This document shows, one piece after another, positions 17,409-46,699 of a stretch of DNA of 64,000 nucleotides. How positions within the stretch are numbered: position 1 is the first letter of the stretch; each line of letters begins with the position of its first letter. The position numbers were made by a program, and so were the translations under genes. The stretch is from a virus. The notes under the pieces were generated by a model. It had not been told where the DNA came from. It made no database searches and worked only from the letters and a program-made list of their open reading frames with translations. The stretch lies in the IMG/VR virus record IMGVR_UViG_3300045988_088152, positions 23,432-87,431 of that record. One strand, written 5' to 3'.

Positions 17409-17646
17409 ATTTCGCCCTCCTTTCTTTGTTTTATTGTTTATATATTAGAGCAGTTAGATTATGGACTTCATTAACGTATGCCAAAGTTCATTGAGCTACT
17501 TATCCTCCCTATCCGCTCGTTTTATATTTTTGAGTGTTTTTATTTTCGGCTTTTGACTAAGCCTAAGTTGGAACTTGGATTCCACACAACCCTAATAGTA
17601 CCTCCACGACAACACACCAACATAGTAGCCGCTTCATAGGCAAATA

Positions 17647-23356: not shown

Positions 23357-25930
23357 CTACTGTTTTAACATGTCTCCCGTGCGGACAGGTGGAGCTTCAC
23401 GCGATTCAGTACGCCGCTGATTATCCGCCTTCTTATAGCATTCCTCTGAGCAATAATGCTGACATACATCGCGCGGCTTGAATCGCTTGCCGCAAATGGG
23501 ACAAATTGGATTGAGTTGCGCCGTATTGATTCTCAAATTTTCTACAATCGTCCAACCAAAACAAGCCCACAGCATTTTCTTATTACTTGATTTTTTGACC
23601 GTATATAAATAAGCAACTAAGCTATTAACCACAACATCTAGCGGCTCATTGCTATACTCCACTATATCTTGTGTTATGCGGCGATATTTATACAAATCGT
23701 CTTCATTGATATGTGGGTCATCGCCATAATCGAATCGGCGCTGATTCCATATCCACCAATTATACCTCTCTATGATTGGTGAATTTTCTCTAGTGGTATA
23801 ATCAACTGATTTATTTATCAGCATCGTCCAGTCAAATTTTCCAATCTTGTTATTATAGCGGATTCTGGAAGCAGGGATTTTTGTCGATATACGATTCATT
23901 GTGGAATTGTTAGGAGGTTCTACTTGGGTATCTGGGTCTTTGTCTTTGGCATATTGAAAGAAATTTGGAACACGAGCTTTTGTATATTGCTTGATAGTGT
24001 TATTGATTTGTTTCGGTCGTTCTGGCAGCCATTGCGTCTTAGCGCAATCTATAACAGCGTTGTTCTCGAAACAAAGCCATTTTACTACATCTAGCTCTTC
24101 TTGTGTGATTTCGCCACTGTTCCATATTTTTGTAATATTGTTACTAACCGGTCCTATATTGCCTTTAGTATAAGCATTGACCATTCCATTATACATGCTG
24201 TCTGGATTTAATAAGCCGCCCTTAGCTTTTTTGAGGTCATATGCTAGAGGAACTATATCTTGCATATTGTGTTTGGCGCAACTTGTCAACGTTCTATCTT
24301 TTACTACTAGAGCCTTATCCCCATCTACGTCAAACATAAGGTAACGTGAAATAAGGTCGTGGCAACTAGTATATATACACTTAGTTCCACCAAACCAATA
24401 ATCAAGCTCTAAGTTGCGCCGATTCGTCCTAATTGCCCATTCTCGATATAGGTGCGGCGAACGTAAGCAAGCCAATGTTTCTTCGTCTCGATATTGATTT
24501 GTATATACATCGCCATCTGCAAGCAGTCCTTGTGGGTTTTGTTGTCCTAAAAATAACCATTCGCAAAACGCATATAGATCGGGCGCTAAGAATAGATATT
24601 TTCCATTTACTCTAAGCCGCCCACCTTTGGCTTGTTTAACTAGGCTTTTTTTAGTCTGTTTCAAAATTTCTCGGTTATATGAATCTTTGAACAGCTCAGG
24701 ATATATCAGCAACGCCTCTTGCATAGCTGATTTATACCGGTTATTCTCTGTTGCGCCAAGTAGCCTCATAGTAACTTGATAATCATTACCAACATCATCA
24801 ATCTCTTGCGCCGTCTTAGAGATGATGCGGTCAATCTCATTATCTGTCATATCGCTCAATGTCTGCAACATCTGATAGTTGATGCGGCTCTTTGGAATAT
24901 AAGGCTCCTCTATATTGCAATAACAAGCATTGCATCCAAAATTTTTGAATCGCGCCTTATAGCAATCCCACGAATCATAAAATTTCCATAGCTTGAATTG
25001 GCTCTTTGTGAATATATACCGTATATCTTCCTCTATAATTTTATGCTCATTTCCATAAATATCTGTTACAGTTGTCTCCCCACCACATTTCTCTTTGATA
25101 AACTTGTCAAATGGAAATGTAACAAGCAATCCCTTTACCCATGGCATACGTACCATTCTTGTTGTTTCATCAAGCATAATACCGCATCCGTCCATATGAG
25201 GAATAACCGTATTTGTCATCTCGCGTTTAATTTCATACGTAACACCATCAATATGGTCAACCAATCCCGGAACAGCCGTTTCCCAATCATCTACCACAAT
25301 TGATTTGTCAATGTCAAAATCTTGCCAAACATCTGTAGCAGAGTTCATAAGCGCCAAATAAGCAAGGAACTTGTTTTGATTCATGCCTCCCCGCTCATTG
25401 ATTTCATCTATGGTCAAGCCGCACATCAATTTTTGCTCAATGCGCTTAAACGACGATTCTTTGACAAATACAGCTCTTTTCGTTCTTATCTGTCCTGCTG
25501 ATGCAGTAAGGAACACATATTTTTCACCATTGTAAATAAATCCTTGACGAACTAGATTATTAAATACTTGAAAGAAAAATACGTTGATAATGAACAGCTC
25601 ATCTGTCAATTTGAATGGCTCAAGACCTAAGCTGCGTGTTAAATCGGATTCAAATAGATTAACAACCGTCTTATCTGTCACAGCATCTTGTCGCAATTCT
25701 CTAGTTACGTTTCGATTTACTGCATCATCAAGCAATTCAGATAACCGTGCCTTTTCTTTTTTGAGTAAACGATTTACCGACTTGATGCGCCAATCTGGCT
25801 TTCCGTCATCCTTCCATCGCTTACGCAACGAATATAACCGAACGAGCCGAGTATGTAATATCATTTCGTTATCGTCATAAAATGCGCTAGTATCTATTGA
25901 ATGCAAATAAATTTGCGTCTGTAGGCTCAA
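23357..25930 (-). CDS. YonO/RDR-like single-subunit (two-barrel) RNA polymerase
   Basis: 857 aa. It has LMFDVDGDKALV (a DxDGD metal-binding motif), an upstream ASAGQIRTKRAVFV resembling the RDR-family SxSQxR block, and a C-terminal CPICG...C..C zinc ribbon. The TTG start is coupled to the upstream small ORF. Confidence 0.6.
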   Translation of the reverse strand: MSLQTQIYLHSIDTSAFYDDNEMILHTRLVRLYSLRKRWKDDGKPDWRIKSVNRLLKKEKARLSELLDDAVNRNVTRELRQDAVTDKTVVNLFESDLTRSLGLEPFKLTDELFIINVFFFQVFNNLVRQGFIYNGEKYVFLTASAGQIRTKRAVFVKESSFKRIEQKLMCGLTIDEINERGGMNQNKFLAYLALMNSATDVWQDFDIDKSIVVDDWETAVPGLVDHIDGVTYEIKREMTNTVIPHMDGCGIMLDETTRMVRMPWVKGLLVTFPFDKFIKEKCGGETTVTDIYGNEHKIIEEDIRYIFTKSQFKLWKFYDSWDCYKARFKNFGCNACYCNIEEPYIPKSRINYQMLQTLSDMTDNEIDRIISKTAQEIDDVGNDYQVTMRLLGATENNRYKSAMQEALLIYPELFKDSYNREILKQTKKSLVKQAKGGRLRVNGKYLFLAPDLYAFCEWLFLGQQNPQGLLADGDVYTNQYRDEETLACLRSPHLYREWAIRTNRRNLELDYWFGGTKCIYTSCHDLISRYLMFDVDGDKALVVKDRTLTSCAKHNMQDIVPLAYDLKKAKGGLLNPDSMYNGMVNAYTKGNIGPVSNNITKIWNSGEITQEELDVVKWLCFENNAVIDCAKTQWLPERPKQINNTIKQYTKARVPNFFQYAKDKDPDTQVEPPNNSTMNRISTKIPASRIRYNNKIGKFDWTMLINKSVDYTTRENSPIIERYNWWIWNQRRFDYGDDPHINEDDLYKYRRITQDIVEYSNEPLDVVVNSLVAYLYTVKKSSNKKMLWACFGWTIVENLRINTAQLNPICPICGKRFKPRDVCQHYCSEECYKKADNQRRTESREAPPVRTGDMLKQ

Positions 25931-27035: not shown

Positions 27036-27266
27036 ATGCCAAGAACAAAGAAAGTTAACGCCGTAGTCCAATATAGCGATACTGGCTGGATTATTAATGA
27101 TTGCGGCAATGGACAATTTGAGCTATACAACACCAGCACTAAGCAGATTTTAGCAAAGAGCAATAATCCATTGGATTTTGATAAGCATATAGACACAATT
27201 TTTGGCAAGGAGGCGGCTAAGCATGTTCGAGATTTTCAAGCTGAGCAAGAAGAAGAAAGAGCTTGA
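27036..27266 (+). CDS. hypothetical protein
   Basis: ORF track; RBS GAGGTGAG upstream. Confidence 0.55.
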   Translation: MPRTKKVNAVVQYSDTGWIINDCGNGQFELYNTSTKQILAKSNNPLDFDKHIDTIFGKEAAKHVRDFQAEQEEERA

Positions 27267-28392
27267 AGAACAAATTGCTCAACTCAAAGCAGATATTTCT
27301 AGTATGCAAACAGAAATTGATAACTATGACGAACATCAGCAAATTGCGGCGCATCAATACGAAAACACCATGCGCTCTGCAAAGGCGGCTCAATCCGTCC
27401 TTGATGCACTAAATGGTAAAATCCATGCTATTGAAGAAATGCAGGATTATAATATCCCGTATTATCAGGATTCGCTAGATGAACTTGAGCATAAGCGCTA
27501 TGAGCTACAAAGCAAAATTGAATCTGCTGTAGATACTGGTCTATATCGCATTGAGCAAGGATATACACTCAATGATTCTGCTAGACGTGGTAAAGAAATG
27601 CAGGATGTATATGGGCGTGGATTGTGTTATGCTATGTCAGGATATATTGATAGCAAAGAAAAATCTGTCACAACAGGCAATATTGCTAAAAGCAAAGAAT
27701 TGATTAAGAATAAATTTAATTCTTATCAGTCTAAAGCAAATAAAGTTGGATTAGCGCTTAATGCTGAATATGTCAAAGCGCGGCTTGATATACTAGATAT
27801 TAACTTAGCTATCAAAGTCAAACAGAAAGAAGAAAAAGCTCGAATTCGTGAAGAAAAGCGTAGATTGAGAGAACAAGAGCAGTTGCTTGCTGATATTGCT
27901 AGAGAGCGCGCAAAGTTGCTAGAAGAAAAGAAAGCAATGAATATTGCGTTTGATAAGGCACTGACAAATGATGAGCGTAATAAGATCAAATCTCAATTAG
28001 CTAGTATCGACAAGCGTCTCGATTCTATTGCTTATCGTGAGTCGCATAGCAAGGCTGGTTGGCTATATGTCATTAGTTCACCTAGCCTGCCCGGATTAGT
28101 GAAGTTAGGTTGCACCAGAAGATTGAATCCTGCATTGAGAGTGCGCGAACTCAGCTCAAGCAGTTTGCCAGAACCATATCATGCTCATTGTTTCGTATTT
28201 AGCGACGACTGCTTTGAGCTAGAAAATAATATCCATAAATATTTTGACAAAGAGCGGGTCAACCCTGATAGAGAATTTTTTCGTATCGAGCCAAAAGAGG
28301 CTATTGATGTGTTAAAAGAAATTTTCAACGTAGATGTCCATTTTGTAGATGAAGATTGCAATGAAAACGAGGAGGATGAATATGCGAGTTAA
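27223..28392 (+). CDS. coiled-coil (DUF4041-like) plus T5orf172/MUG113 (GIY-YIG-related) domain protein
   Basis: The C-terminus GWLYVISSPSLPGLVKLGCTRRLNPALRVRELSSSSLPEPY...EFFRI follows the T5orf172 pattern. The start is taken at the ATG after AAGGAGG. Confidence 0.7.
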   Translation: MFEIFKLSKKKKELEEQIAQLKADISSMQTEIDNYDEHQQIAAHQYENTMRSAKAAQSVLDALNGKIHAIEEMQDYNIPYYQDSLDELEHKRYELQSKIESAVDTGLYRIEQGYTLNDSARRGKEMQDVYGRGLCYAMSGYIDSKEKSVTTGNIAKSKELIKNKFNSYQSKANKVGLALNAEYVKARLDILDINLAIKVKQKEEKARIREEKRRLREQEQLLADIARERAKLLEEKKAMNIAFDKALTNDERNKIKSQLASIDKRLDSIAYRESHSKAGWLYVISSPSLPGLVKLGCTRRLNPALRVRELSSSSLPEPYHAHCFVFSDDCFELENNIHKYFDKERVNPDREFFRIEPKEAIDVLKEIFNVDVHFVDEDCNENEEDEYAS

Positions 28393-30183: not shown

Positions 30184-30411
30184 ATGGAGAAAAATAGGAT
30201 GGCTGAACTGAAACCATGTCCGTTTTGCGGGGGTATGGCTCTAATAAACGACGACCCTTATGCGGTTGAGGATACAGAAGACCGGTATTGGGCATTTAAT
30301 ATTGTATGTAGTAAATGCTGTGCAACATCTGGACTTGCATACTCGATTGAAATGGCTATCGAAGCATGGAATAGGAGAGTTGATAATGATTTGGCATTAT
30401 CCAACGCTTAA
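30184..30411 (+). CDS. lar: Lar-family restriction alleviation protein
   Basis: LKPCPFCGG...NIVCSKCCA...EAIEAWNRR follows the Lar family pattern. Confidence 0.6.
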   Translation: MEKNRMAELKPCPFCGGMALINDDPYAVEDTEDRYWAFNIVCSKCCATSGLAYSIEMAIEAWNRRVDNDLALSNA

Positions 30412-31518: not shown

Positions 31519-31580
31519 TGAAATCTGCCCCAAGACCCTATGTATGTGTTATAGGGAAATAAATTGGGGCAGATTTTTTA
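31519..31580. terminator. bidirectional terminator between convergent genes
   Basis: AAATCTGCCCCAA ... TTGGGGCAGATTT forms a 13-bp stem flanked by A-run and T-run. An inner CCCTAT/ATAGGG hairpin is present. Confidence 0.65.
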
Positions 31581-32627
31581 TTGATTGCACTTTTCACTTG
31601 CAACCAAATCCTTGAGCTTGTCGCTCTGCTTATTGTTCATATTGATGTCGACAAATTCGCGCCGCTGTTTGCCCGTGATACAACTAAGCTGGCTGGTCTG
31701 AATAATCTTAGCACAAGCCTCTTTATTGATTTTCTCAAAGCTGGGATAATGCTCATAGACATCTAATAGTCGGTTAGCTATCCATTCCTTTGTAGCTGGC
31801 TTGATGATATAAACCTCTTTAACTTTGACATATTCGCCGCCAAATGCCTCTAGGGTTAATTGAGCAAGTCGCGCCTCAAATGCTTTATATTGCTCTGTGG
31901 ACACATATGGTTTATAGACCCTATTATCTATGACCTTGCCCCAATTTGGCGGCATTATCTCATTGACGGCTTTAGAATATATTGATAGGCAGATTTGATG
32001 GTCTTGGCTATCTTCTGGAACATCGTATGTTTCGAGCCATGTTTCTTTTCCCTCTGGGTTGCTTCTTTGCTTATAGAGCCGATAGCCTCTATTCAAGTCT
32101 ATAACATAACGGTTCTTCATGGTTAGCAATTTGCGCCTAGTCCATTGAGCAAGGATATTATATATAACGCCATTAACCAAACTCATATAGCCATAATGCT
32201 CTGAATTTTCTACGGCTTGGCTATATGTATAGCTGAAATTATCATTAACCTCTTGGAACATTCTGAGTAGATTGCTGGTTGACGCATATATGGTGGCGCA
32301 GTTTGTCTTTAGAAATATTTGATAAAGGGCGGCTTCAAATGCGGCTTGGTATGAATCTTTATCTAGTTCATTGATAAGTGCGTCTGCTTCAGGATAGACC
32401 TCTTGGACAATATAGCGGGTTGGATAAACATTGTCTACTGTATCTAGCTGGCAGTAGTTGCGGATTTTATCTAGCTGAGAAGCACGAGAGCCGCCATCTC
32501 TTGGAGGCATATCAATGGCTTTACATAATTCACGATATTTCAATTCGCGCCCTTCTATTTTGATTAGAGCATTGACCAGCTTGCCATCTTCATTGGATGG
32601 CAGGTATTTTATTTTGTTTGGCATATT
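31578..32627 (-). CDS. hypothetical protein (349 aa from the ATG after the RBS)
   Basis: ORF track 31578..32696. The ATG at 32627 follows AGAAAGGAAA. No family was recognised. Confidence 0.55.
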   Translation of the reverse strand, partial: NMPNKIKYLPSNEDGKLVNALIKIEGRELKYRELCKAIDMPPRDGGSRASQLDKIRNYCQLDTVDNVYPTRYIVQEVYPEADALINELDKDSYQAAFEAALYQIFLKTNCATIYASTSNLLRMFQEVNDNFSYTYSQAVENSEHYGYMSLVNGVIYNILAQWTRRKLLTMKNRYVIDLNRGYRLYKQRSNPEGKETWLETYDVPEDSQDHQICLSIYSKAVNEIMPPNWGKVIDNRVYKPYVSTEQYKAFEARLAQLTLEAFGGEYVKVKEVYIIKPATKEWIANRLLDVYEHYPSFEKINKEACAKIIQTSQLSCITGKQRREFVDINMNNKQSDKLKDLVASEKCNQ

Positions 32628-32654
32628 ATTTCCTTTCTGTAACAATTTTGTAAT

Positions 32655-32744
32655 ACTCGGACTTTCAGGGGTCGTCACTCGGACTTTGCGTGACACTATG
32701 ATAATACTAGCGTATTATATTACATTCACGGAAAATCCGAGTCC
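32655..32744. promoter_or_regulatory. three copies of ACTCGGA(CTTT) half-site (two direct, one inverted)
   Basis: ACTCGGACTTT at 32655 and 32677, 22 bp apart, plus the inverted AAATCCGAGTCC at 32733. All lie in the leader/promoter region of the 31578 gene. Confidence 0.6.
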
Positions 32745-33171
32745 ATTTCGCCCATATAAAATATAGCAATTTTTAACATCATCATATTATCATTATCTAA
32801 TTATACCATATTCTAAGCATTTATTTGTTAATAAATTGTAAATTATTATAACTTAGATTCTGCTATTTAATTTTAGCAGACTTTGAGTTAAGTTGAGCTG
32901 GTTGTGTGATAATTGCTAAAATGTATGTGGCATTACAGGTTATGTGATTTGTTGTGCTAAATGCCAATTTCTTCCATTTCTACCATTCTCATCCATAACC
33001 ATGCCCCGGTACTGGAAAATGCTGTCAGTACAAAAAAACGCCGGTAAATATAGCTTTGTGGGCGTATCGCCTTATTTTACTTGCATATGATACCATACGG
33101 TATCATTTTCGGCATTATCGAATAAAAAATCGAAAATGGCGGATCGGAATTGATAGTTCAAAATTGAATAT

Positions 33172-33460
33172 GTAGCATGCTACGTGTTACACGTATCGCA
33201 TTTTTTGGTAAACACCATTTACCCCACCATAGTAAACCTCATTTACTATCATTTACCTTATTATCCATATTATACTAACCATTATATCATATTACTATAT
33301 CTGATATACCACACAAGATACAATGATATTCAATACAATTATATCGATATCTAAATACTGTTACCATTATGTAACACTTTTGTAACTATTATAATCAGTA
33401 CAATATATAGATACAATCTATCGATAAAAACATACAATAGTCAATATCGATATAATTATA
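33172..33460. repeat. palindromes and short iterons in an AT-rich noncoding region
   Basis: GTAGCATGCTAC (33172) and ACGTGTTACACGT (33182). CATTTAC occurs three times, with inverted GTAAAC (33207-33260). ATACAAT ... ATCGATA units recur across 33317-33460. Confidence 0.7.
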
Positions 33461-33835
33461 TCTATATAACTATTAAGATATTGTACTAATAAGCAATGAA
33501 TGGATAATCATGCAGTATATACATATCATAACTATACAAGAATTAATACAATTCTAGCATATTCTAATTTTCTAGTCGCATATTATAGCTATTTACCTAT
33601 AAAACAATGAATATTGAAACTATATAAAATATGAATAACGGAATACTTTTCTTTGCCGTATGATTTCACGGCTCGACCCAAAAACGGCGCTATGAAGCTT
33701 GTATGACCTCTCAGCGGTATTATAGACTTTTTGCCGTTGTCAAGTTATTATATACTATAATATATATAATATCTGTTTCGTCAATTTGCATAAAATCAGC
33801 CGCATTTTTTGTGTAATATTTTTATAATGGATGGG

Positions 33836-33864
33836 TTGACTTTTTTAGTGTTTTGCTATATTAT
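33836..33864 (+). promoter_or_regulatory. weaker sigma-A type promoter (TTGACT-N17-TATTAT)
   Basis: Upstream of the first ORF of the GC-rich island. Confidence 0.4.
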
Positions 33865-33895
33865 ATAGACAGACGGAAACGAAAGGAGTGATAAA

Positions 33896-33973
33896 ATGAT
33901 AGCGGTACTTGAACGCATTGCCTACGCTCTTGAACGAATCGCAGAGCTTCTGGAAGAGCTTGTCAAGAAGTAA
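33896..33973 (+). CDS. 25-aa helical peptide ORF
   Basis: AAAGGAG RBS. The product is MIAVLERIAYALERIAELLEELVKK. It is below the ORF-track cutoff. Confidence 0.35.
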   Translation: MIAVLERIAYALERIAELLEELVKK

Positions 33974-34100
33974 AGCAATGCAAGGGAAGGCGGTTGAAAT
34001 ACACCGCCGACCCTATACCGCTAAAATAAACAAAAACAATCAATCAATTTTGTACAATATGACGATTGACATTATAAAAAATATCGGTTATACTTAAGGC

Positions 34101-34123
34101 ACAAACAAACAAACAAACAAACA
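34101..34123 (+). repeat. (CAAA)5 tetranucleotide repeat abutting the SD of 34138
   Basis: ACAAACAAACAAACAAACAAACAGGAGG. Confidence 0.9.
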
Positions 34124-34137
34124 GGAGGAATAAAACA

Positions 34138-34350
34138 ATGAGAATTTATGAACTTGAAACCCAATTCGACGCACGCAAGAGCTTTTACGGCAAAGCACAT
34201 GTTATCGACTACGAAAACGGAACTTTGGAACTCCAGAGTTACAACACGATTGTTTCCAATTGTGTCAATGGCAAAGTAGAAGAGCTCGGAAAATGGAGTA
34301 ATACCACAACGCGCCACCAGAAAGAATTCCGTAAACAGTTTGAAAACTAA
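34138..34350 (+). CDS. hypothetical protein
   Basis: ORF track; strong RBS. I have seen the SFYGKA...LQSYNTIV...TTTRH pattern in phage/plasmid small proteins but cannot name the family. Confidence 0.6.
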   Translation: MRIYELETQFDARKSFYGKAHVIDYENGTLELQSYNTIVSNCVNGKVEELGKWSNTTTRHQKEFRKQFEN

Positions 34351-34369
34351 TATTTGAGGAGGAACAAAA

Positions 34370-34708
34370 ATGAAAAAAGAATGTAGAGAATACGCGCAGG
34401 GCGTCGCGGAAGAGATCGAAGCCATTTACAACGGCACGACGGAAGAGGAAAACGACGACGGCGAAAAGAAGAGTCTATATGACTATGTGGCAGACGCGCT
34501 CGATTTTGAAGCCATTTTGACCAGTACAAAAACGGTTAAAGCCGTTCGCTTGTATGTTACACTGGGCGGCCCGACTTGCTACGTTGATACGGAGTTGCAC
34601 GCGGTTGTTTGCGCATGGGGCGGAGACCGGGAAGAATACCCGCTCGACTGGGACGCTTGCGACGAACTCGAAAGTATCATTGCTGAATATATGGAAATGG
34701 AACGTTAA
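34370..34708 (+). CDS. hypothetical strongly acidic protein
   Basis: ORF track; GGAGGA RBS; GC-rich codon usage unlike most of the window. Confidence 0.6.
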   Translation: MKKECREYAQGVAEEIEAIYNGTTEEENDDGEKKSLYDYVADALDFEAILTSTKTVKAVRLYVTLGGPTCYVDTELHAVVCAWGGDREEYPLDWDACDELESIIAEYMEMER

Positions 34709-34792
34709 ACATTTCCGTGCGGTTTTCTATGCCGTTTTCCGTAAAAAAGCGGCACTCCATGAACAAAAAAACATGAAAAGAGGTTTACAATT

Positions 34793-34972
34793 ATGAAAGT
34801 TACTTATTTGTTGACGTGGGTAAACGAAAAAGAAACGGGGCGCGGGGATATGGGCGAACAGTGGCTAGATTGCGACTATGAAACGGCTTGTCAGCTTGCT
34901 AAAATGTTCGCAAATGCAAGCGCCGGAAAAGCGTATGTTCGTATCATTCCCGCAAATGAAATTGCATATTGA
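34793..34972 (+). CDS. hypothetical 59-aa protein
   Basis: My own reading. The ATG at 34793 follows AAAGAGG. It is just under the ORF-track cutoff. Confidence 0.45.
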   Translation: MKVTYLLTWVNEKETGRGDMGEQWLDCDYETACQLAKMFANASAGKAYVRIIPANEIAY

Positions 34973-35112
34973 AAAAGGAGCGTAAAAATGAAAAAGAAAA
35001 ACGCCGCTTAAATCCCGTTTACTGGGCATTTCAATTTTTAGGTTGTATGGTAGCAATTTCCAGCTTGTTCTGGATTCCATATCTTGTCAATATGATTTTA
35101 GGGGGTTGAATT

Positions 35113-35319
35113 ATGCACACTGTAAAATTTTGGGATAGTAAATTATACCGGCTTCAAAAATTAGCAGATTCTATCAACTACCATATTGACAGCGATAAAG
35201 ACTATTTACAAATTTGTAAATTATTGCCAGCGTCAAGAAGCAAACCCGCACCGGTCGAGATTCTACCACTTTTTTACAATGTGGTCGAACGGGTGCAAAG
35301 TGTAAAAAATTGTAAATAA
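35113..35319 (+). CDS. hypothetical protein
   Basis: ORF track. Confidence 0.5.
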   Translation: MHTVKFWDSKLYRLQKLADSINYHIDSDKDYLQICKLLPASRSKPAPVEILPLFYNVVERVQSVKNCK

Positions 35320-35335
35320 TAGGGAGGATTTTACC

Positions 35336-35521
35336 ATGGAAAAAACTAGAAAAATTCGTTGTTATGTCAATGGGGAATATTGCTTTACTACTACAAAATT
35401 TTCTAGTCAAAAAGCATTAAAAAATTATTTAAGAAGCGTAAAGCATGTTGAAATTGCGTCAATTCCTATGAAATATGTTACAATTTACGACTATGACAAA
35501 TTGACTTTTGAATACGTCTAA
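35336..35521 (+). CDS. hypothetical protein
   Basis: ORF track; GGGAGGATTTTACC ATG junction. Confidence 0.5.
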   Translation: MEKTRKIRCYVNGEYCFTTTKFSSQKALKNYLRSVKHVEIASIPMKYVTIYDYDKLTFEYV

Positions 35522-35540
35522 ACAGGGGGAGGATTTTACA

Positions 35541-35861
35541 ATGTTATTTTATGGAAAATATGAGAATGGCAAGCGTTATATCTGCGCGTATGACGAAGAA
35601 AAGCACGGATCCCCGCGCGTCGTGTCGGACAGCTGGACATTTTTATATCACAACTCTGTTATTGTAAACCGCGTATATAAAACAGAACGGGAAGCAATGG
35701 CGGGAACTTGGGGAAAATATAGTAATAAATCTGTTATCATGCCAGACGGAACAGAGACGACGCCCGCGCGTTATTTTGGGACGGAAGATATAAACGACGT
35801 GTTTATTCCATGGTATGACGGGTTATTTCCATTTTTTACAAATCCGGTTAGACGGCTCTAA
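35541..35861 (+). CDS. hypothetical protein
   Basis: ORF track frame; GGGGGAGGATTTTACA ATG junction. Confidence 0.55.
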   Translation: MLFYGKYENGKRYICAYDEEKHGSPRVVSDSWTFLYHNSVIVNRVYKTEREAMAGTWGKYSNKSVIMPDGTETTPARYFGTEDINDVFIPWYDGLFPFFTNPVRRL

Positions 35862-35956
35862 CTACCATATTTTTCCACCATTCTTTGATCAAACGAAGTG
35901 AAAAATCGACGGGTCGAGCGGGCATAGACACGAATGCACCTTACAATTTTTTACAT

Positions 35957-36093
35957 TTTTCCCAGTAATATATAGTATGTATAATGGCTCGGCGGCGAAA
36001 AATCGAGCTGGATTTTCTCATGTGCGCGTGTGCGGATTAGGTTAAGCGAATTTTCCCCAGTAATATATGCCTATATACAATCGCGGCGGCGGC
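35957..36093. repeat. two ~41-nt direct repeats
   Basis: TTTTCCCAGTAATATAT..TAT..ATA....GGCGGCG at 35957-35997 and 36051-36093. Confidence 0.8.
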
Positions 36094-36282
36094 AATGCGG
36101 CTCAGGACAGGCGTGGCGGCTCGAATCAGCTGCGAGTATATCTTGCCTAGGGTAAATGTAAACGTGACTGAGATTGGCACAGACTGCGCGACACGGATAT
36201 GATACAATCTGTGCTTACAGCTTGCGTATCTTATATCATATAGACAAATTGATAACTGACAACCGCACATTATTTTACTACA

Positions 36283-36690
36283 GAAAAATGTGTGAATGTA
36301 CAAAAATCTCCCACAGAAAATGTGATGATGTAAGTGAATATTCATATGAAAAAATGTGAATGATGTTGACTTTGATGCTAATATGTCTATTGATATGTGT
36401 ATGAAAGTAATGTTTCTATTTATAGACACAAATCTGCGTATTGTTTATAAATATATCTATCTACATCATGCGTATTGTTATTTATATCATTTATGTGCAT
36501 GATGATGTAGATGTATCTGCATATGAATATGTAAATGTATATGCAGATGATAATGGATGTGTATATAGATATCTATATATGCACAAGCTGGAAAATGAAG
36601 AATGACTTTCGAGATTGTAGATATGTGCGGAAAATGAAATTCTAAAATCAGGATTGATATTTACAATCGTGGAATGAAAATTGAAATTCG
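36283..36690. repeat. several families of short direct repeats in an AT-rich noncoding block
   Basis: AAAATGTGnnATGnTGT occurs three times (36283-36366). TGCGTATTGTT occurs twice (36435, 36469). GGAA(A)ATGAA(A)ATT occurs three or more times (36590-36690). Confidence 0.75.
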
Positions 36691-36693
36691 TAC

Positions 36694-36722
36694 TTGACAA
36701 ATAGAATCAAATGTGGTATATA
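36694..36722 (+). promoter_or_regulatory. sigma-A type promoter (TTGACA-N17-TGgTATATA)
   Basis: Upstream of 36768. Confidence 0.6.
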
Positions 36723-37515: not shown

Positions 37516-38091
37516 ATGTATGTACTTTATAACCAAAAATACTATCTCATGCAGAATGCAATTAAGCAATTTGTTCCAACGCCCGAATTAAACGAGTCGT
37601 TTCAATTCATCGATAAAACCAAAGCCGAAAATGCGCTTGCTAATCTACCAAAGCAAATGCGCAATCTGGGTTATTTTGTGCAACAAATTGATGCACCATC
37701 TAAATCCGTCGATTTCGACCAGTTTACAAATGTAGAGCTAGTTGATTATGATTCAGCATTAGAGCAAATTGGCTCATTCTGCGATCTACACGACCATCTT
37801 GTAGCAAGAGCGCCATGGATAGATAATAAATTGACCGAGGTAGAGAATAAAATTCAAGACGTGCTTCATGCCATTGAATTTAATTCATATAATGCTAGAG
37901 ATGGATATAAGATATATAAGTTGCTACATGATTTACGGCTCGAACGGCGCAAATATAAAGATGAGCAAATTATAGCGGATGTGATGAAAAGTGGTTTTGC
38001 TGGTTCAAATTGGGAATTGGCTAGGACTAGAGTAGACGATTTGAAAGATAGACAATATCATGTTAGAGAAATGGAGGAGCTGTTTGAATGA
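37516..38091 (+). CDS. hypothetical protein
   Basis: ORF track. Confidence 0.55.
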   Translation: MYVLYNQKYYLMQNAIKQFVPTPELNESFQFIDKTKAENALANLPKQMRNLGYFVQQIDAPSKSVDFDQFTNVELVDYDSALEQIGSFCDLHDHLVARAPWIDNKLTEVENKIQDVLHAIEFNSYNARDGYKIYKLLHDLRLERRKYKDEQIIADVMKSGFAGSNWELARTRVDDLKDRQYHVREMEELFE

Positions 38092-38322: not shown

Positions 38323-38745
38323 ATGATTGAAACAAGAATTTATAAATGTGAATATTGCGGCGCAGAATTTGATGATGAGTATGAGGCGCATTGCCATGAG
38401 TATGTGTGTCAGTATGAAGATGTAAAGAAGTATAAAGGAAGTTGTCTTGCCTTTTACAATGATGACGGTGAAAGAATCAAATTTAATGCACAGACTGTAT
38501 ATGATGAACTAGGTAATGTAGCTGCATTTACAGTTGGTAATGATGACGATGTAAAATTTATTATTGGATTGCTTGGTTGGGCTGGATATGATAATCCATT
38601 TAGACTTATTGAAGATGAGGCGAATCCAAACTACTATGGTCTGTGGTGGTTTGATGCTGATTTGCATTGTGGTGAATGGGTGCGAGTTGATGACCAGATT
38701 AAAAAGTGGACGGATATTAAAAATAAATTTGAAAAAGATACTTGA
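38323..38745 (+). CDS. hypothetical protein
   Basis: ORF track. Its stop TGA lies inside the next -35 hexamer. Confidence 0.55.
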   Translation: MIETRIYKCEYCGAEFDDEYEAHCHEYVCQYEDVKKYKGSCLAFYNDDGERIKFNAQTVYDELGNVAAFTVGNDDDVKFIIGLLGWAGYDNPFRLIEDEANPNYYGLWWFDADLHCGEWVRVDDQIKKWTDIKNKFEKDT

Positions 38746-41677: not shown

Positions 41678-41754
41678 GGCTCAGTACCCCAATCGGCAGA
41701 GGGAGCGGATTCAAAATCCGTAAAGTGTGGATTCGAATTCCACCTGAGCTACCA
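41678..41754 (+). tRNA. class I tRNA, anticodon CAA by canonical reading
   Basis: Hand fold. Acceptor GGCTCAG/CTGAGCT. Anticodon arm GCGGA-TTCAAAA-TCCGT. 5-nt variable loop. T arm GTGGA-TTCGAAT-TCCAC. ACCA is encoded. Confidence 0.65.
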
Positions 41755-45116: not shown

Positions 45117-45309
45117 GCGCCCGTCCCACATTTACGAAATCCCCTGTAACCGTTGTGATTATCAATCTGATTGTGACCGATATGTGAAAATCGACCCACG
45201 CATGACAGCACAGCGTGATAAAATGTGGAATGATGCTGATTTGAATTGTATGGATTGTGTGCTGAGAAATGTGCTAAAGATGAGGAAGGATGGTGCTAAT
45301 GCCAGCTAA
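45109..45309 (+). CDS. hypothetical Cys-rich protein
   Basis: ORF track frame. Confidence 0.5.
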   Translation: MSKRPSHIYEIPCNRCDYQSDCDRYVKIDPRMTAQRDKMWNDADLNCMDCVLRNVLKMRKDGANAS

Positions 45310-46699
45310 ATCATCTGGCACATCCAAGCCATATCTACATTTTATTGGTGGTAATGCCGCATCTGTAACAGGTTCATGCACGATTGTTCGATTCGACAAT
45401 ATTAAATTAGCTGTTGATATGGGTCTAATTCAGACAAATAATCTAGTAGCTGATTATCGCGCTAATCGTGATCAGATGAAGAAAATTAAGCCAAAGACAG
45501 TACATGGTGTTATTATATCACATTGCCATTACGATCATTGTATGGGTGTTCTTGCCGCTGTTGCCATGGGTATGCAAGCATATATCTATATCCCTCAAGG
45601 ATCAATCCCTATCCTCAAGATAATGATGGATGATTGTATTAAAATCATGGCACAGGATAGCTTAAAGATGCAGAACAAGCATGGTATCAAAGCACCGCCA
45701 TTGGCTACTGAGGCGGATATTGATAAGGTAATGCAATGGCTTGTCGAAGTGCCGTTTGACGTTCCTACAACCATTGTAGGCGGTGCAAAGCTAACATATT
45801 ATCATGCTGGTCATATTGTTCATTCGGCTCAAGCCGTGTTGGAAATCAAACAAGGGTATAGCATCAAGCGAATTGGCTTTACAGGCGATTTCAATACAGA
45901 GGCTAAGAGCGTATCTGTGCCACCAATCGAGACATTGCCAAGATGTAATGTAGTGGTTGGTGAATGCACATATAGTGACCCTACTAGATGCTATAGCACG
46001 AAGAAAGACCGATGGTATGATGAGCAGATTATCAATGCGGCTATATGCCAATATAACCGTATTTTGATGCCAGCTTTTAGCTTGCAGCGCGTAGAGGATA
46101 TTCTTGATGTTCTATGGCGCACACGAGCCACAGAGCGCAAGATTGATGAACAGATGATTCCTGTTTATCTTGATTCGCCGCTTGCTTGTCGTATTTATAG
46201 AGCATGGTCAGAGCAACTAGATTATGAAGATAAGCTCAACTTGCGGCTAATTGAATCATGGGAAGAAAGCCAAGTAATTCAGCAATCAAACGAACGAGCT
46301 ATTATAGTAGCTAGTAGTGGTATGCTCAATGCTGGACGGGCTTTGGCGCATCTCAAATATATCCTGCCTAATAGCCGTAATGCCGTGCTATTCTCTGGCT
46401 ATGCTAGTCCTAATACGCTTGCATATGAAATCAAGCATGGTGCAAAAGAAATCATGCTTGATGGTGAGATGATTCAAAACAATGCTCAGATATATTGCTT
46501 AAATACATTTTCGTCTCATGCTAATTATAACCAGCTAATGCAATATTACCAGAATATAGATTATGATAAATTGTGCTTAGTACATAGTGAATTTTCAAGC
46601 AAAGTGGAATTTGTTAATACTCTACAAGATGAGCTAATCAAACAAGGTAAATCAAGTAGAGTTGTATGTACTCAGCAAGATCAGAAGGTATTCATATGA
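45290..46699 (+). CDS. metallo-beta-lactamase fold hydrolase/nuclease
   Basis: SHCHYDHCMG is the HxHxDH motif. The 469-aa size is compatible with a beta-CASP type nuclease, but that is not verified. Confidence 0.75.
   Translation: MVLMPAKSSGTSKPYLHFIGGNAASVTGSCTIVRFDNIKLAVDMGLIQTNNLVADYRANRDQMKKIKPKTVHGVIISHCHYDHCMGVLAAVAMGMQAYIYIPQGSIPILKIMMDDCIKIMAQDSLKMQNKHGIKAPPLATEADIDKVMQWLVEVPFDVPTTIVGGAKLTYYHAGHIVHSAQAVLEIKQGYSIKRIGFTGDFNTEAKSVSVPPIETLPRCNVVVGECTYSDPTRCYSTKKDRWYDEQIINAAICQYNRILMPAFSLQRVEDILDVLWRTRATERKIDEQMIPVYLDSPLACRIYRAWSEQLDYEDKLNLRLIESWEESQVIQQSNERAIIVASSGMLNAGRALAHLKYILPNSRNAVLFSGYASPNTLAYEIKHGAKEIMLDGEMIQNNAQIYCLNTFSSHANYNQLMQYYQNIDYDKLCLVHSEFSSKVEFVNTLQDELIKQGKSSRVVCTQQDQKVFI

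What the first reader, a model, noticed from the sequence alone, without database searches (positions are those of the whole stretch)
33650..35861. Patchily GC-rich island of seven or eight small unknown ORFs between two repeat arrays
Segments such as 34540-34690 are clearly GC-rich (about 55 percent by eye) and use GC3-rich codons (GCG CGC GTC GTG TCG GAC). The rest of the window is AT-rich, which implies recent acquisition from a different gene pool. The ORFs are short (25-112 aa) and none matches a family I can name. One (34370..34708) is strongly acidic, the hallmark of DNA-mimic anti-restriction proteins. The island lies next to the putative origin/terminus, where first-entering anti-defence genes are often found. 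A 9-bp inverted match (GCTCGACCC at about 33670, GGGTCGAGC at about 35905) flanks it, but that could be chance.
Basis: partly seen in the sequence, partly recalled or inferred. Interest (0 to 1): 0.65.

Follow-up and report, generated by a model that had tools for sequence, protein, structure and literature searches.

The report
Swappable early-gene cassette in gut phage
This stretch is the variable early-gene slot of a roughly 90-100 kb gut phage related to Bacillus phage SPbeta, where related phages carry different small genes of unknown function, several of them very acidic, so it is a good place to look for new counter-defence proteins but not an unusual kind of region.

Summary
Bases 34540-34690 are 55.6% G+C, the highest 150-base value in a 38.5% G+C window. 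The acidic ORF 34370-34708 (o112) has pI 4.1, net charge -18 and GC3 0.55 (z = 4.6). The region as a whole is not deviant (39.6% G+C).

The window is an SPbeta-like phage with a YonO-type RNA polymerase. The region lies in its early part, which carries host-type promoters. It has two sigma-A-like promoters and eight small genes, between two conserved AT-rich non-coding blocks.

In relatives fetched through a neighbouring gene, only a 40-aa membrane-peptide gene is constant, and in this window it is frameshifted. The slot behind promoter P2 holds one of five or more unrelated genes. Three of them are strongly acidic (pI 4.1). o112 is one of these and occurs in 2 of 18 sampled relatives.

o112 belongs to a large family that is acidic throughout and found mostly in viral contigs. 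Its model is confident, has no solved-structure neighbour, and matches no Pfam family. Its composition fits the 46-52% G+C phages that carry its nearest outside homologues.

A counter-defence or host-takeover role is plausible but untested. The origin/terminus claim and the 9-bp inverted match are not supported.

The parts
32697..33835 (.). Left non-coding block. It includes the AT-rich repeat array 33200-33650 and lies between the lone reverse gene 31578-32696 and promoter P1.
   Evidence: G+C is 21-26%. Short direct and inverted repeats are present. The block is 70-80% identical in relatives. Several related contigs break here at different points, two of them in a (TA)n run.
33836..33864 (+). 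Promoter P1, sigma-A-like: TTGACT, 17 bases, TATTAT.
   Evidence: 10 of 12 consensus matches. Its position is conserved in relatives.
33896..33973 (+). o25, a 25-aa amphipathic-helix ORF in variable slot 1.
   Evidence: Shine-Dalgarno GAAAGGAG. Found in a minority of relatives; others carry a different 45-65 aa ORF here. Weak match to phrog_35332, E = 1e-3.
33989..34008 (+). G+C-rich hairpin between the P1 unit and P2 (GGCGGT, loop, ACCGCC).
   Evidence: A hairpin at this position is conserved in relatives with a different stem sequence. It has no T-run, so it is not a canonical terminator (sequence).
34066..34094 (+). Promoter P2: TTGACA, 17 bases, TATACT. It sits inside an inverted repeat (CGAT...ATCG) and is followed by an (ACAA)n leader at 34101-34123.
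   Evidence: 11 of 12 matches, the best in the region. It is unique in the window. It is conserved upstream of different cargo genes in relatives.
34138..34350 (+). o70, a DUF8033 / phrog_4264 small protein, inserted between the P2 leader and the next gene.
   Evidence: phrog_4264, E = 2e-21. Tagged PF26096. Absent from most relatives, where P2 runs straight into the cargo gene. Homologues occur in 173 cultured Firmicutes phage records. In Bacillus phage P59 the homologue lies in the 13.3-kb terminal repeat.
34370..34708 (+). o112, the acidic G+C-rich cargo gene (type A occupant of the main slot).
   Evidence: pI 4.12, net charge -18. GC3 0.549, z = 4.6. The family has 515 representative clusters. 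All 76 aligned members have pI 4.05-4.58. AF2 pLDDT is 96.9. No PDB neighbour. No Pfam match. Synonymous changes far outnumber non-synonymous ones.
34793..34972 (+). o59, a variable small ORF.
   Evidence: Present in few relatives. No family match.
34988..35109 (+). TM40, a 40-aa membrane-peptide gene and the only constant gene of the module. In this window it is frameshifted.
   Evidence: Relatives read ATG AAA AAG AAA AAA CGC..., giving MKKKKRRLNPxYW... plus a hydrophobic stretch. The window has A5 instead of A6 at 34997-35001, so the ATG frame stops after 7 codons. Only a TTG at 34969, which lacks a Shine-Dalgarno sequence, keeps the frame. The gene is present in every relative that covers the position.
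35113..35319 (+). o68, a variable small ORF.
   Evidence: Present in about half of relatives. No family match.
35336..35521 (+). o61, a variable small ORF that is unusually AT-rich.
   Evidence: 27% G+C, GC3 0.226. Present in a minority of relatives.
35541..35861 (+). o106, a family restricted to this clade. Its last 13 residues differ from relatives.
   Evidence: 146 clusters at 57-92% identity, all covering about 88% of the query. The AF2 model is poor (pLDDT 67). No fold match.
35862..36692 (.). Right non-coding block. It has a G+C-rich conserved part (35862-36200) with two 19-nt direct repeats ATTTTYCCCAGTAATATAT at 35955 and 36050, followed by an AT-rich repeat array (36200-36700).
   Evidence: 74-82% identical in relatives. 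No covariation support for an RNA structure. No meaningful Rfam match.
36694..36722 (+). First promoter of the next transcription unit: TTGACA, 17 bases, TATATA, with TG. It belongs to a repeated promoter class, CTTGACAAATA...TGGTATAAT.
   Evidence: It marks the right boundary of the module. The gene caller's start for the hydrolase gene (L001 12399) converts to window 36768.

Best explanation
The region is the hypervariable early accessory module of a clade of roughly 85-100 kb gut phages related to SPbeta.

Shown:
- It lies in the half of the genome that carries host-type (sigma-A consensus) promoters.
- It has two such promoters of its own.
- It is bounded by two conserved non-coding blocks.
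- Its gene content differs from relative to relative around one constant gene, a 40-aa membrane peptide.
- The conserved P2 promoter and leader precede different, unrelated first genes in different relatives.
- The G+C-rich acidic gene o112 is one of at least five alternative occupants of that slot.

Inferred:
- Cargo is swapped by recombination between the conserved left flank (promoter and leader) and the conserved membrane-peptide gene.
- o112 came from a phage gene pool of about 50% G+C.
- The module is read by host RNA polymerase immediately after DNA entry.
- Its cargo proteins act on the host rather than on phage replication.
- For o112 and the two other pI-4.1 occupants, the most likely action is binding and blocking a host nucleic-acid-binding defence or housekeeping protein through a conserved negatively charged surface. 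This is counter-defence or host takeover in the manner of a nucleic-acid mimic.
For: Phage identity and early/late layout:
- The 857-aa protein at 23357-25930 is 45% identical over 99% of its length to YonO of SPbeta and phi3T.
- A DNA polymerase, a DnaB-like helicase and a RecJ-like nuclease lie downstream.
- 12/12 or 11/12 sigma-A promoters are nearly all on the + strand between 26.8 and 63 kb. One more precedes the YonO gene. The late - strand genes themselves have none.

Module anatomy.

Conserved flanks.

The P2 promoter and leader are conserved in front of types A and D, and in front of o70 followed by A, B or D.

Census anchored on a neighbouring gene (24 loci, 18 reaching the slot):
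- Type A (o112): 2 loci.
- Type B (82 aa, pI 4.1): 6 loci.
- Type C (122 aa, pI 4.1): 2 loci.
- Type D (130 aa, neutral): 6 loci.
- Type E (182 aa): 1 locus.
- Other: 1 locus.
- The types are mutually exclusive and show no pairwise similarity. TM40 is present in all 18.

o112 as a functional, selected gene:
- 30-32 synonymous against 7-15 non-synonymous codon differences between orthologues.
- 515 representative clusters.
- A confident fold.
- Family-wide acidity, with acidic positions conserved on the helices.

Distribution of the o112 family:
- 22 viral-contig loci.
- Only 2 loci in one genome per 185,579 species.
- None found on plasmids with one family member as query.

Foreign composition of o112. 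Its nearest outside homologues sit in contigs of 46-52% G+C.

The DUF8033 neighbour lies in the terminal-repeat block of small genes of a Herelleviridae phage.
Against: - No cargo gene matches any characterised anti-defence, DNA-mimic or host-takeover protein by sequence or fold.
- Early timing is inferred from promoter sequence only. No expression data could be obtained.
- The module is one of many host-promoter units, so nothing marks it as the first to be expressed.
- The most common occupants include a neutral protein (type D), so acidity is not a rule of the slot.
- The invariant GGP, DT and WG motifs of o112 fit a ligand- or protein-binding pocket at least as well as a pure charge mimic.
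- A conserved membrane peptide and a promoter inside an inverted repeat would also suit prophage-expressed exclusion genes.
Confidence: 0.45

Rival explanations
1. This is a recently acquired island next to the origin or terminus, and its acidic protein is a DNA-mimic inhibitor of restriction-modification enzymes delivered with the first DNA to enter the cell.
For: - o112 has pI 4.1 and net charge -18.
- Acidity is family-wide.
- Its codon usage is foreign.
- It is patchy among relatives.
- Two other pI-4.1 proteins share the slot.
- A Lar-type restriction-alleviation domain is tagged on a gene 4 kb upstream, so the phage does appear to invest in anti-restriction.
Against: - No profile match to Ocr or ArdA.
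- No solved DNA mimic appears among the fold neighbours; the best Foldseek E-value is 0.23.
- The region is a fixed slot between conserved flanks, not an insertion with its own ends.
- The 9-bp inverted match is at chance level.
- No evidence places an origin or terminus here.
- Orthologues within the clade are already 6-18% diverged.
Confidence: 0.2
2. These are lysogenic-conversion or superinfection-exclusion genes (morons). The module would be expressed from the prophage, with the membrane peptide and its variable partners protecting the lysogen against other phages.
For: - The promoters are independent host-type promoters, and P2 sits inside an inverted repeat that could be an operator.
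- The constant gene is a small membrane peptide.
- The phage has an MrpR-type repressor homologue, which indicates a temperate lifestyle.
- Cargo turnover at a fixed locus is also typical of morons.
Against: - No prophage copy of o112 was found in one genome for each of 185,579 species. Relatives appear as free 77-101 kb contigs, one of which closes on itself.
- The module sits among early lytic and replication units and has the same orientation as them.
- The membrane-peptide gene is broken in this otherwise intact genome, so it is dispensable at least here.
Confidence: 0.2
3. These are regulators of the phage's own programme, for example anti-repressors or modulators of the lysis-lysogeny switch. 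This would follow the small early genes under MrpR/SPBRE control in SPbeta.
For: - The module is divergent from a lone, conserved reverse-strand gene (31578-32696) across a long regulatory-looking non-coding block.
- In SPbeta, MrpR represses a set of early promoters that front small genes, most of unknown function (PMC10516654).
Against: - Core regulators are not normally replaced by unrelated genes from relative to relative.
- No repeated operator shared with other promoters of the window was found around P1 or P2.
- The o112 family occurs in unrelated 30-46 kb phages in quite different contexts.
Confidence: 0.1
4. This is functionless filler: a recombination-prone spacer that accumulates neutral ORFs.
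For: - Content is highly variable.
- One gene is frameshifted.
- No family has a known function.
Against: - o112 is under strong purifying selection.
- o112 has a confident compact fold.
- The families are large and widely distributed: o112, DUF8033 and type B.
- Every ORF has a good Shine-Dalgarno sequence.
Confidence: 0.05

Closest known systems
Early host-takeover or accessory gene blocks of Firmicutes phages, such as the blocks of small genes in the terminal repeats of SPO1-like Herelleviridae (comparison from general knowledge; the P59 record was inspected)
   Same: - A run of many small, mostly unknown genes.
- Each has a strong ribosome-binding site and lies behind host-type promoters.
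- Content varies between relatives.
- The DUF8033 gene of this module has a homologue inside the annotated 13.3-kb terminal repeat of Bacillus phage P59.
   Different: - No evidence shows that this module lies in a terminal repeat or enters the cell first.
- The genome backbone is SPbeta-like, not SPO1-like.
- Apart from DUF8033, the genes have no homologues in cultured Bacillus phages.
Acidic DNA-mimic anti-restriction proteins (Ocr of T7, ArdA of conjugative elements) and small acidic enzyme inhibitors of Bacillus phages (Ugi, p56) (from general knowledge)
   Same: - Small size.
- pI near 4 and a large net negative charge.
- Placement behind an early, host-read promoter.
- Carriage by mobile elements.
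   Different: - No profile match to the Ocr or ArdA families.
- No fold similarity to any solved structure.
- o112 has strictly conserved GGP, DT and WG motifs in a beta-sheet core, which the known mimics do not share.
- Activity is untested.
Early operons of SPbeta repressed by MrpR through the SPBRE element (PMC10516654)
   Same: - Related phage backbone with a YonO polymerase and an MrpR-like protein.
- Multiple early promoters in front of small genes, most of unknown function.
   Different: - No repeated operator linking P1 or P2 to the other early promoters was found.
- The other early promoters of this window form their own repeated class, CTTGACAAATA...TGGTATAAT, and P1 and P2 do not belong to it.
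Anti-defence hotspots at fixed loci of phages, and leading regions of plasmids, where unrelated inhibitors replace one another (from general knowledge)
   Same: - One slot with conserved flanks.
- Mutually exclusive unrelated cargo.
- A bias towards small acidic proteins.
- Cargo with deviant composition.
   Different: None of the cargo seen here is a known anti-defence gene, so the analogy rests on architecture alone.

Membership tests
Known DNA-mimic anti-restriction families (Ocr PF08684, ArdA PF07275) | Profile match to the family model | tested here: not met
   The Pfam scan of o112 returned no family at E <= 0.1. None of the 76 aligned relatives hits these models.
Known DNA-mimic anti-restriction families (Ocr PF08684, ArdA PF07275) | Fold resembling a solved DNA mimic | tested here: not met
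   The model has pLDDT 96.9. The best PDB Foldseek hit has E = 0.23 and TM 0.23, and no mimic appears in the list.
Known DNA-mimic anti-restriction families (Ocr PF08684, ArdA PF07275) | Strong, conserved negative surface charge | tested here: met
   pI 4.12, net charge -18. All 76 relatives have pI 4.05-4.58. Acidic positions are conserved on helices 2 and 3.
Known DNA-mimic anti-restriction families (Ocr PF08684, ArdA PF07275) | Binds and inhibits a restriction enzyme or another DNA-binding protein | not testable with these tools
   This needs biochemistry or plating assays.
DUF8033 (PF26096) / phrog_4264, for ORF 34138-34350 | Profile match over most of the protein | tested here: met
   phrog_4264 at E = 2.3e-21 over residues 3-68. 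PF26096 is tagged without a weak mark in precomputed tables. The local Pfam copy returned nothing, probably because it lacks this model.
SPbeta-like phages (the genome that holds the region) | Single-subunit YonO-type RNA polymerase, with late genes lacking host promoters | tested here: met
   45% identity over 99% of YonO. Strong sigma-A promoters are confined to the early + strand region and the polymerase gene itself.
SPbeta-like phages (the genome that holds the region) | MrpR-type repressor and an SPBRE-like repeated operator at early promoters | tested here: inconclusive
   The 278-aa recombinase-like proteins of relatives carry a weak PF22823 MrpR_C_cat tag. A repeated extended promoter motif exists. 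Whether it is an operator is unknown, and P1 and P2 lack it.
Horizontally acquired genomic island | Composition deviating from the host genome over the whole element | tested here: not met
   The region is 39.6% G+C against 38.5% for the window. Only o112 (high) and o61 (low) deviate.
Horizontally acquired genomic island | Defined ends (flanking repeats, integrase) | tested here: not met
   The 9-bp inverted match is at chance level and not conserved. No recombinase lies in or beside the region.
Variable-cargo hotspot (accessory or anti-defence type) | Unrelated, mutually exclusive genes at one position between conserved flanks | tested here: met
   Five or more occupant types in 18 loci sampled through a neighbouring gene. 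A shared promoter and leader on the left and TM40 on the right.
Variable-cargo hotspot (accessory or anti-defence type) | At least some cargo with demonstrated anti-defence activity | tested here: not met
   No cargo gene matches a characterised protein.

The most novel reading that the evidence does not exclude
The o112 family has 515 or more clusters. It is uniformly acidic and is found almost only in viral contigs. Its fold has no solved relative. On this reading it would be a new class of phage inhibitor of a host nucleic-acid-binding defence. The P2 slot would then be a natural 'allelic series' in which three unrelated acidic proteins (types A, B and C) and a neutral one (type D) are alternative counter-defences matched to different host immune repertoires.
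Probability: 0.25. Interest if true: 0.7.

Novelty: new member of a known kind. Interest (0 to 1): 0.42.

Why it matters
Variable early regions are where many phage counter-defence proteins have been found. Very little is known for phages of gut Firmicutes. This locus gives a compact, well-bounded test set:
- one conserved promoter;
- one constant membrane peptide;
- at least five interchangeable cargo genes, three of them about as acidic as known DNA mimics (an approximate comparison from general knowledge).

The o112 family is large, is predicted with confidence, and resembles no solved structure. A function for it would therefore annotate hundreds of phage genes at once. If the cargo proves inert, the locus still documents how cassettes are exchanged exactly at a promoter leader in an abundant gut phage clade.

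Tried and rejected
- DNA similarity to cultured phages found nothing.
- Pfam, PHROGs, NCBIfam and PADLOC scans of all eight ORFs and of the reverse gene found only phrog_4264 for o70.
- PDB sequence searches with o112's profile, o70, o106, the 372-aa reverse gene and slot types B, C and D gave nothing meaningful.
- The fold search of o112 against the PDB gave no neighbour. Against viral models it gave only uncharacterised family members.
- The o106 model was too poor (pLDDT 67) and its fold search was empty.
- Domain fusions of long o112 relatives showed only zinc-ribbon inserts and DUF3849, whose function is unknown. Literature searches for DUF8033 and DUF3849 returned nothing.
- Neighbours of distant o112 homologues have no Pfam match, and there is no conserved neighbourhood.
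- My first presence/absence table (o112 in 16 of 16 loci) was circular, because those loci had been fetched with o112 itself. I replaced it with a census anchored on a neighbouring gene.
- I considered the idea that contig ends near the region mark a physical terminus, and rejected it as unsupported. The ends are scattered. One contig closes on itself with a 75-bp overlap. Strain-level variation in the slot is a sufficient cause of assembly breaks.
- The search for an SPBRE-like operator shared by P1 and P2 found none.
- An RNA structure in the G+C-rich non-coding part has no covariation support, and Rfam gave only a spurious weak hit.
- The 'immediate-early protein RSP40' label on a type B homologue comes from a herpesvirus protein name and carries no information.
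Full report
**What the window is.** The 64-kb window is 38.5% G+C. Genes run on the - strand up to about 26.7 kb and on the + strand afterwards, and the cumulative GC skew turns at that point. The 857-aa protein at 23357-25930 (-) is 45% identical over 99% of its length to YonO, the single-subunit RNA polymerase of Bacillus phages SPbeta and phi3T. It has weaker relatives in Enterocloster, Clostridium and Thomasclavelia phages. A portal protein lies in the - strand part. A DNA polymerase, a DnaB-like helicase and a RecJ-like exonuclease lie in the + strand part. Near-perfect sigma-A promoters (TTGACA, 17 bases, TATAAT, mostly with an upstream TG) are almost all on the + strand between 26.8 and 63 kb. 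One more sits in front of the polymerase gene, and the late genes have none. This matches the SPbeta logic from general knowledge: host polymerase reads the early genes and the phage polymerase gene, and YonO reads the late genes. The window comes from an 87-kb metagenome scaffold. Close relatives are 77-101 kb contigs.

**Checking the observation.** The G+C-rich patch is real and is the most extreme in the window. Bases 34540-34690 are 55.6% G+C, and the three highest 150-base windows all lie at 34501-34561. The high-G+C signal belongs to one gene:
- ORF 34370-34708 (o112) is 49.9% G+C with GC3 0.549. The mean GC3 of 45 long ORFs is 0.345 (sd 0.045, maximum 0.447), so z = 4.6.
- Its codon choice is distinct. 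GAC is used 8 times out of 10 (background 27%), GCG and GCC 7 of 11 (20%), ACG 4 of 8 (13%), GGC 6 of 7 (36%) and TAC 4 of 8 (11%).
- ORF 35336-35521 deviates the other way (27% G+C, GC3 0.23).
- The region as a whole is 39.6% G+C, which is ordinary.

There are eight small + strand ORFs, seven of them with clear Shine-Dalgarno sequences. o112 has pI 4.12 and net charge -18. Both AT-rich flanks exist. The 9-bp inverted match is at 33671-33679 and 35911-35919. It has no weight: 35% of shuffled flanks give at least one such match, and the left arm is not conserved in relatives.

**Anatomy.** From left to right the region contains:
- a 1.1-kb non-coding block with the AT-rich array;
- promoter P1 (33836-33864; TTGACT, 17 bases, TATTAT);
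- o25;
- a G+C-rich hairpin;
- promoter P2 (34066-34094; TTGACA, 17 bases, TATACT; 11 of 12 matches, the best in the region), which sits inside a short inverted repeat and is followed by an (ACAA)n leader;
- o70, o112 and o59;
- a 40-aa membrane-peptide gene (TM40);
- o68, o61 and o106;
- an 0.85-kb non-coding block, G+C-rich at first and then AT-rich;
- the first promoter of the next unit (36694-36722).

That last promoter belongs to a repeated class, CTTGACAAATA...TGGTATAAT. The class recurs at 38741, 39311, 39564, 41134 and 55680, and P1 and P2 do not belong to it. Both non-coding blocks are 70-82% identical in relatives.

**Comparison with relatives.** I first fetched relatives through o112 itself and found it in all of them. 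That result is circular. I then fetched 24 IMG/VR loci through the neighbouring 191-aa gene at 37516-38091. Of these, 18 reach the slot.
- The only gene present in all 18 is the 40-aa membrane peptide.
- Type A, o112: 2 loci.
- Type B, an 82-aa protein with pI 4.1 and net charge -15 to -19 (phrog_5149): 6 loci.
- Type C, a 122-aa protein with pI 4.1 and net charge -19: 2 loci.
- Type D, a 130-aa neutral, glycine-rich protein of 47-49% G+C (phrog_7028): 6 loci.
- Type E, a 182-aa protein: 1 locus.
- Another gene: 1 locus.

The types never co-occur and show no pairwise similarity; all BLASTP E-values exceed 1. The same P2 promoter and leader precede type A, type D, or o70 followed by A, B or D. 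In two loci P2 is missing and type B follows the hairpin directly. In this window o70 is inserted exactly between the leader and the ribosome-binding site of o112. The other small ORFs (o25, o59, o68, o61, o106) are each present in only some relatives. The region is therefore a fixed slot with exchangeable cargo, not an inserted island.

**The membrane-peptide gene is broken here.** In all relatives it reads ATG AAA AAG AAA AAA CGC..., giving MKKKKRRLNPxYW followed by a hydrophobic stretch, behind an AAAGGAG ribosome-binding site. The window has five A instead of six at 34997-35001. The ATG frame therefore stops after seven codons, and only a TTG at 34969 without a ribosome-binding site keeps the frame. 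I could not tell whether this is an assembly error at a homopolymer, a real mutation or slippage.

**What o112 is.**
- It has 257 close clusters (at least 82% identity among the 120 listed) in the 90%-identity collection.
- It has 515 clusters at E <= 0.001 among the 50%-identity representatives. Many of these carry it as a C-terminal domain, some with a zinc ribbon inserted after the first helix, and two with an N-terminal DUF3849.
- The consensus has an N-terminal helix, an acidic linker, LxDYxxDxLDxEY, VTLGGPxxWIDT and WG. P68 is invariant, and L44, D45, G66, G67, D73, T74 and W83 are nearly so.
- All 76 aligned members are acidic (pI 4.05-4.58, net charge -8 to -24). Acidic residues are conserved at defined positions on helices 2 and 3.
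- AlphaFold gives a very confident compact alpha/beta model, with pLDDT 96.9, three helices and a five-stranded sheet.
- The model has no neighbour among solved structures; the best E-value is 0.23. Among viral models it matches only uncharacterised relatives.
- No Pfam, NCBIfam or PADLOC model matches it, the only PHROG hit is insignificant (E = 0.07), and the only PDB sequence hits are marginal and implausible.
- Orthologues inside the clade differ at 30-32 synonymous but only 7-15 non-synonymous codons, so the gene is under purifying selection.
- The family appears in 22 viral-contig loci. It appears in only 2 loci in one genome per 185,579 species, with a pattern-limited search. One family member used as query found nothing on plasmids.

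**Origin of the G+C-rich composition.** Orthologues in relatives of 37-38% G+C are 45-50% G+C with GC3 0.42-0.55. The nearest homologues outside the clade (50-55% identity) lie in 31-45 kb viral contigs of 46-52% G+C, where the gene matches or only modestly exceeds its background. In two other low-G+C contigs the homologue again stands out. This fits entry from a phage gene pool of about 50% G+C. The divergence among clade copies shows that the gene has circulated in the clade for some time.

**The other genes.**
- o70 matches phrog_4264 (E = 2e-21) and carries the PF26096 DUF8033 tag. Homologues occur in 173 cultured phage records from Listeria, Staphylococcus, Enterococcus, Bacillus and Lactobacillus. 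In Bacillus phage P59 the homologue lies within the annotated 13.3-kb terminal repeat, among small hypothetical genes.
- o106 is restricted to the clade and could not be modelled well.
- Type B has homologues in Listeria, Polaribacter, Enterococcus and Bacteroides phages, all uncharacterised.
- Type D has none in cultured phages.

**Mechanism.**
- Shown: the module's position in the host-promoter half of the genome; its own sigma-A-like promoters; the conserved flanks; the exchangeable cargo; and the selection on o112.
- Inferred: the module is transcribed by host polymerase soon after entry. Cargo is exchanged by recombination between the conserved leader and the conserved membrane-peptide gene. 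The cargo acts on the host.
- Three unrelated proteins of pI 4.1 share one slot. I therefore think the most likely action of o112 is to bind and block a host nucleic-acid-binding defence or housekeeping protein through its conserved acidic surface. I give this about one chance in four as stated, and about 0.45 for the broader 'early counter-defence or host-takeover cassette' reading.
- The invariant GGP, DT and WG motifs leave room for a pocket that binds a ligand or a specific protein instead.
- The rivals are prophage-expressed exclusion genes, regulators of the phage's own switch (compare MrpR and SPBRE in SPbeta, PMC10516654), and neutral filler.

**Origin/terminus claim.** Nothing supports it.
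- The skew turn lies 6.6 kb upstream and coincides with the flip in gene orientation.
- Many related contigs do end in or beside the module, but at different positions, two of them in a (TA)n run.
- The two ends of one 101-kb contig overlap by 75 identical bases, as expected for a circular assembly.
- Co-existing variants of a hypervariable slot would break assemblies here without any physical end. Read data could not be consulted.

**Verdict.** The thing itself is a new example of a known kind, a variable early accessory slot. Its cargo is entirely uncharacterised, and one member has a confident fold with no solved relative. That makes it a useful lead rather than a surprise.

Noticed in passing
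window 34988-35109: The 40-aa membrane-peptide gene, conserved in every relative, is frameshifted here. An A5 run stands where relatives have A6 (34997-35001). This could be an assembly error, a real mutation or slippage.
   Followed up: partly
window 36693, 38741, 39311, 39564, 41134, 55680 (+ strand): A repeated, extended early-promoter class, CTTGACAAATA, spacer, TGGTATAAT, often behind an A/T-rich upstream stretch. It could carry an operator analogous to SPBRE of SPbeta. P1 and P2 of the module lack it.
   Followed up: partly
window 35862-36200: A conserved G+C-rich non-coding segment with two 19-nt direct repeats, ATTTTYCCCAGTAATATAT, at 35955 and 36050. Each is followed by a TATA-rich box and a GCGGCGG run. 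Its spacing is not that of a sigma-A promoter, covariation does not support an RNA fold, and there is no Rfam match.
   Followed up: partly
window 31578-32696 (-): A lone reverse-strand 372-aa gene, divergent from the module across the left non-coding block. It is 74-92% identical in most relatives sampled (26% in one) and has no Pfam, PHROG, NCBIfam, PADLOC or PDB sequence match. Its position suggests a regulator or replication protein.
   Followed up: partly
window about 30184-30411 (+), = L001 5815-6042: A 75-aa product tagged PF14354 Lar_restr_allev (restriction alleviation) in the precomputed tables. It lies in the upstream early operon, which also holds a T5orf172/SNIPE nuclease (27202-28392), a DUF1599 protein and a dCMP deaminase.
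   Followed up: no
window 17529-17642 (-) and 41678-41751 (+): Rfam matches above the gathering score: drum RNA (RF02958, 55.9 bits) between late genes, and a tRNA in the early region.
   Followed up: no
window 45290-46699 (+); relatives L007 9026-10399 and L008 9717-11089: A metallo-beta-lactamase / beta-CASP protein of about 460 aa. In some relatives it carries a weak PF23023 Anti-Pycsar_Apyc1 tag. This may only reflect the shared fold.
   Followed up: no
L010 (end) and L042 (start), both from IMGVR_UViG_3300045988_084534: The two ends of this 101,275-base contig overlap by 75 identical bases, so the assembly closes into a circle. The cut lies in the right non-coding block of the module.
   Followed up: yes
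window 26128 (-): A perfect 12/12 sigma-A promoter with TG sits upstream of the YonO-like polymerase gene, whereas the late genes downstream have none. This is consistent with host polymerase switching on the phage polymerase.
   Followed up: partly
L025 1579-2105; L016 6572-7096 and L025 2764-3204: In a distant 38.6-kb contig the o112 homologue is again followed by a small membrane-peptide ORF. Two distant contigs share a 'PGYYEG' protein of unknown family a few genes downstream of the homologue.
   Followed up: no
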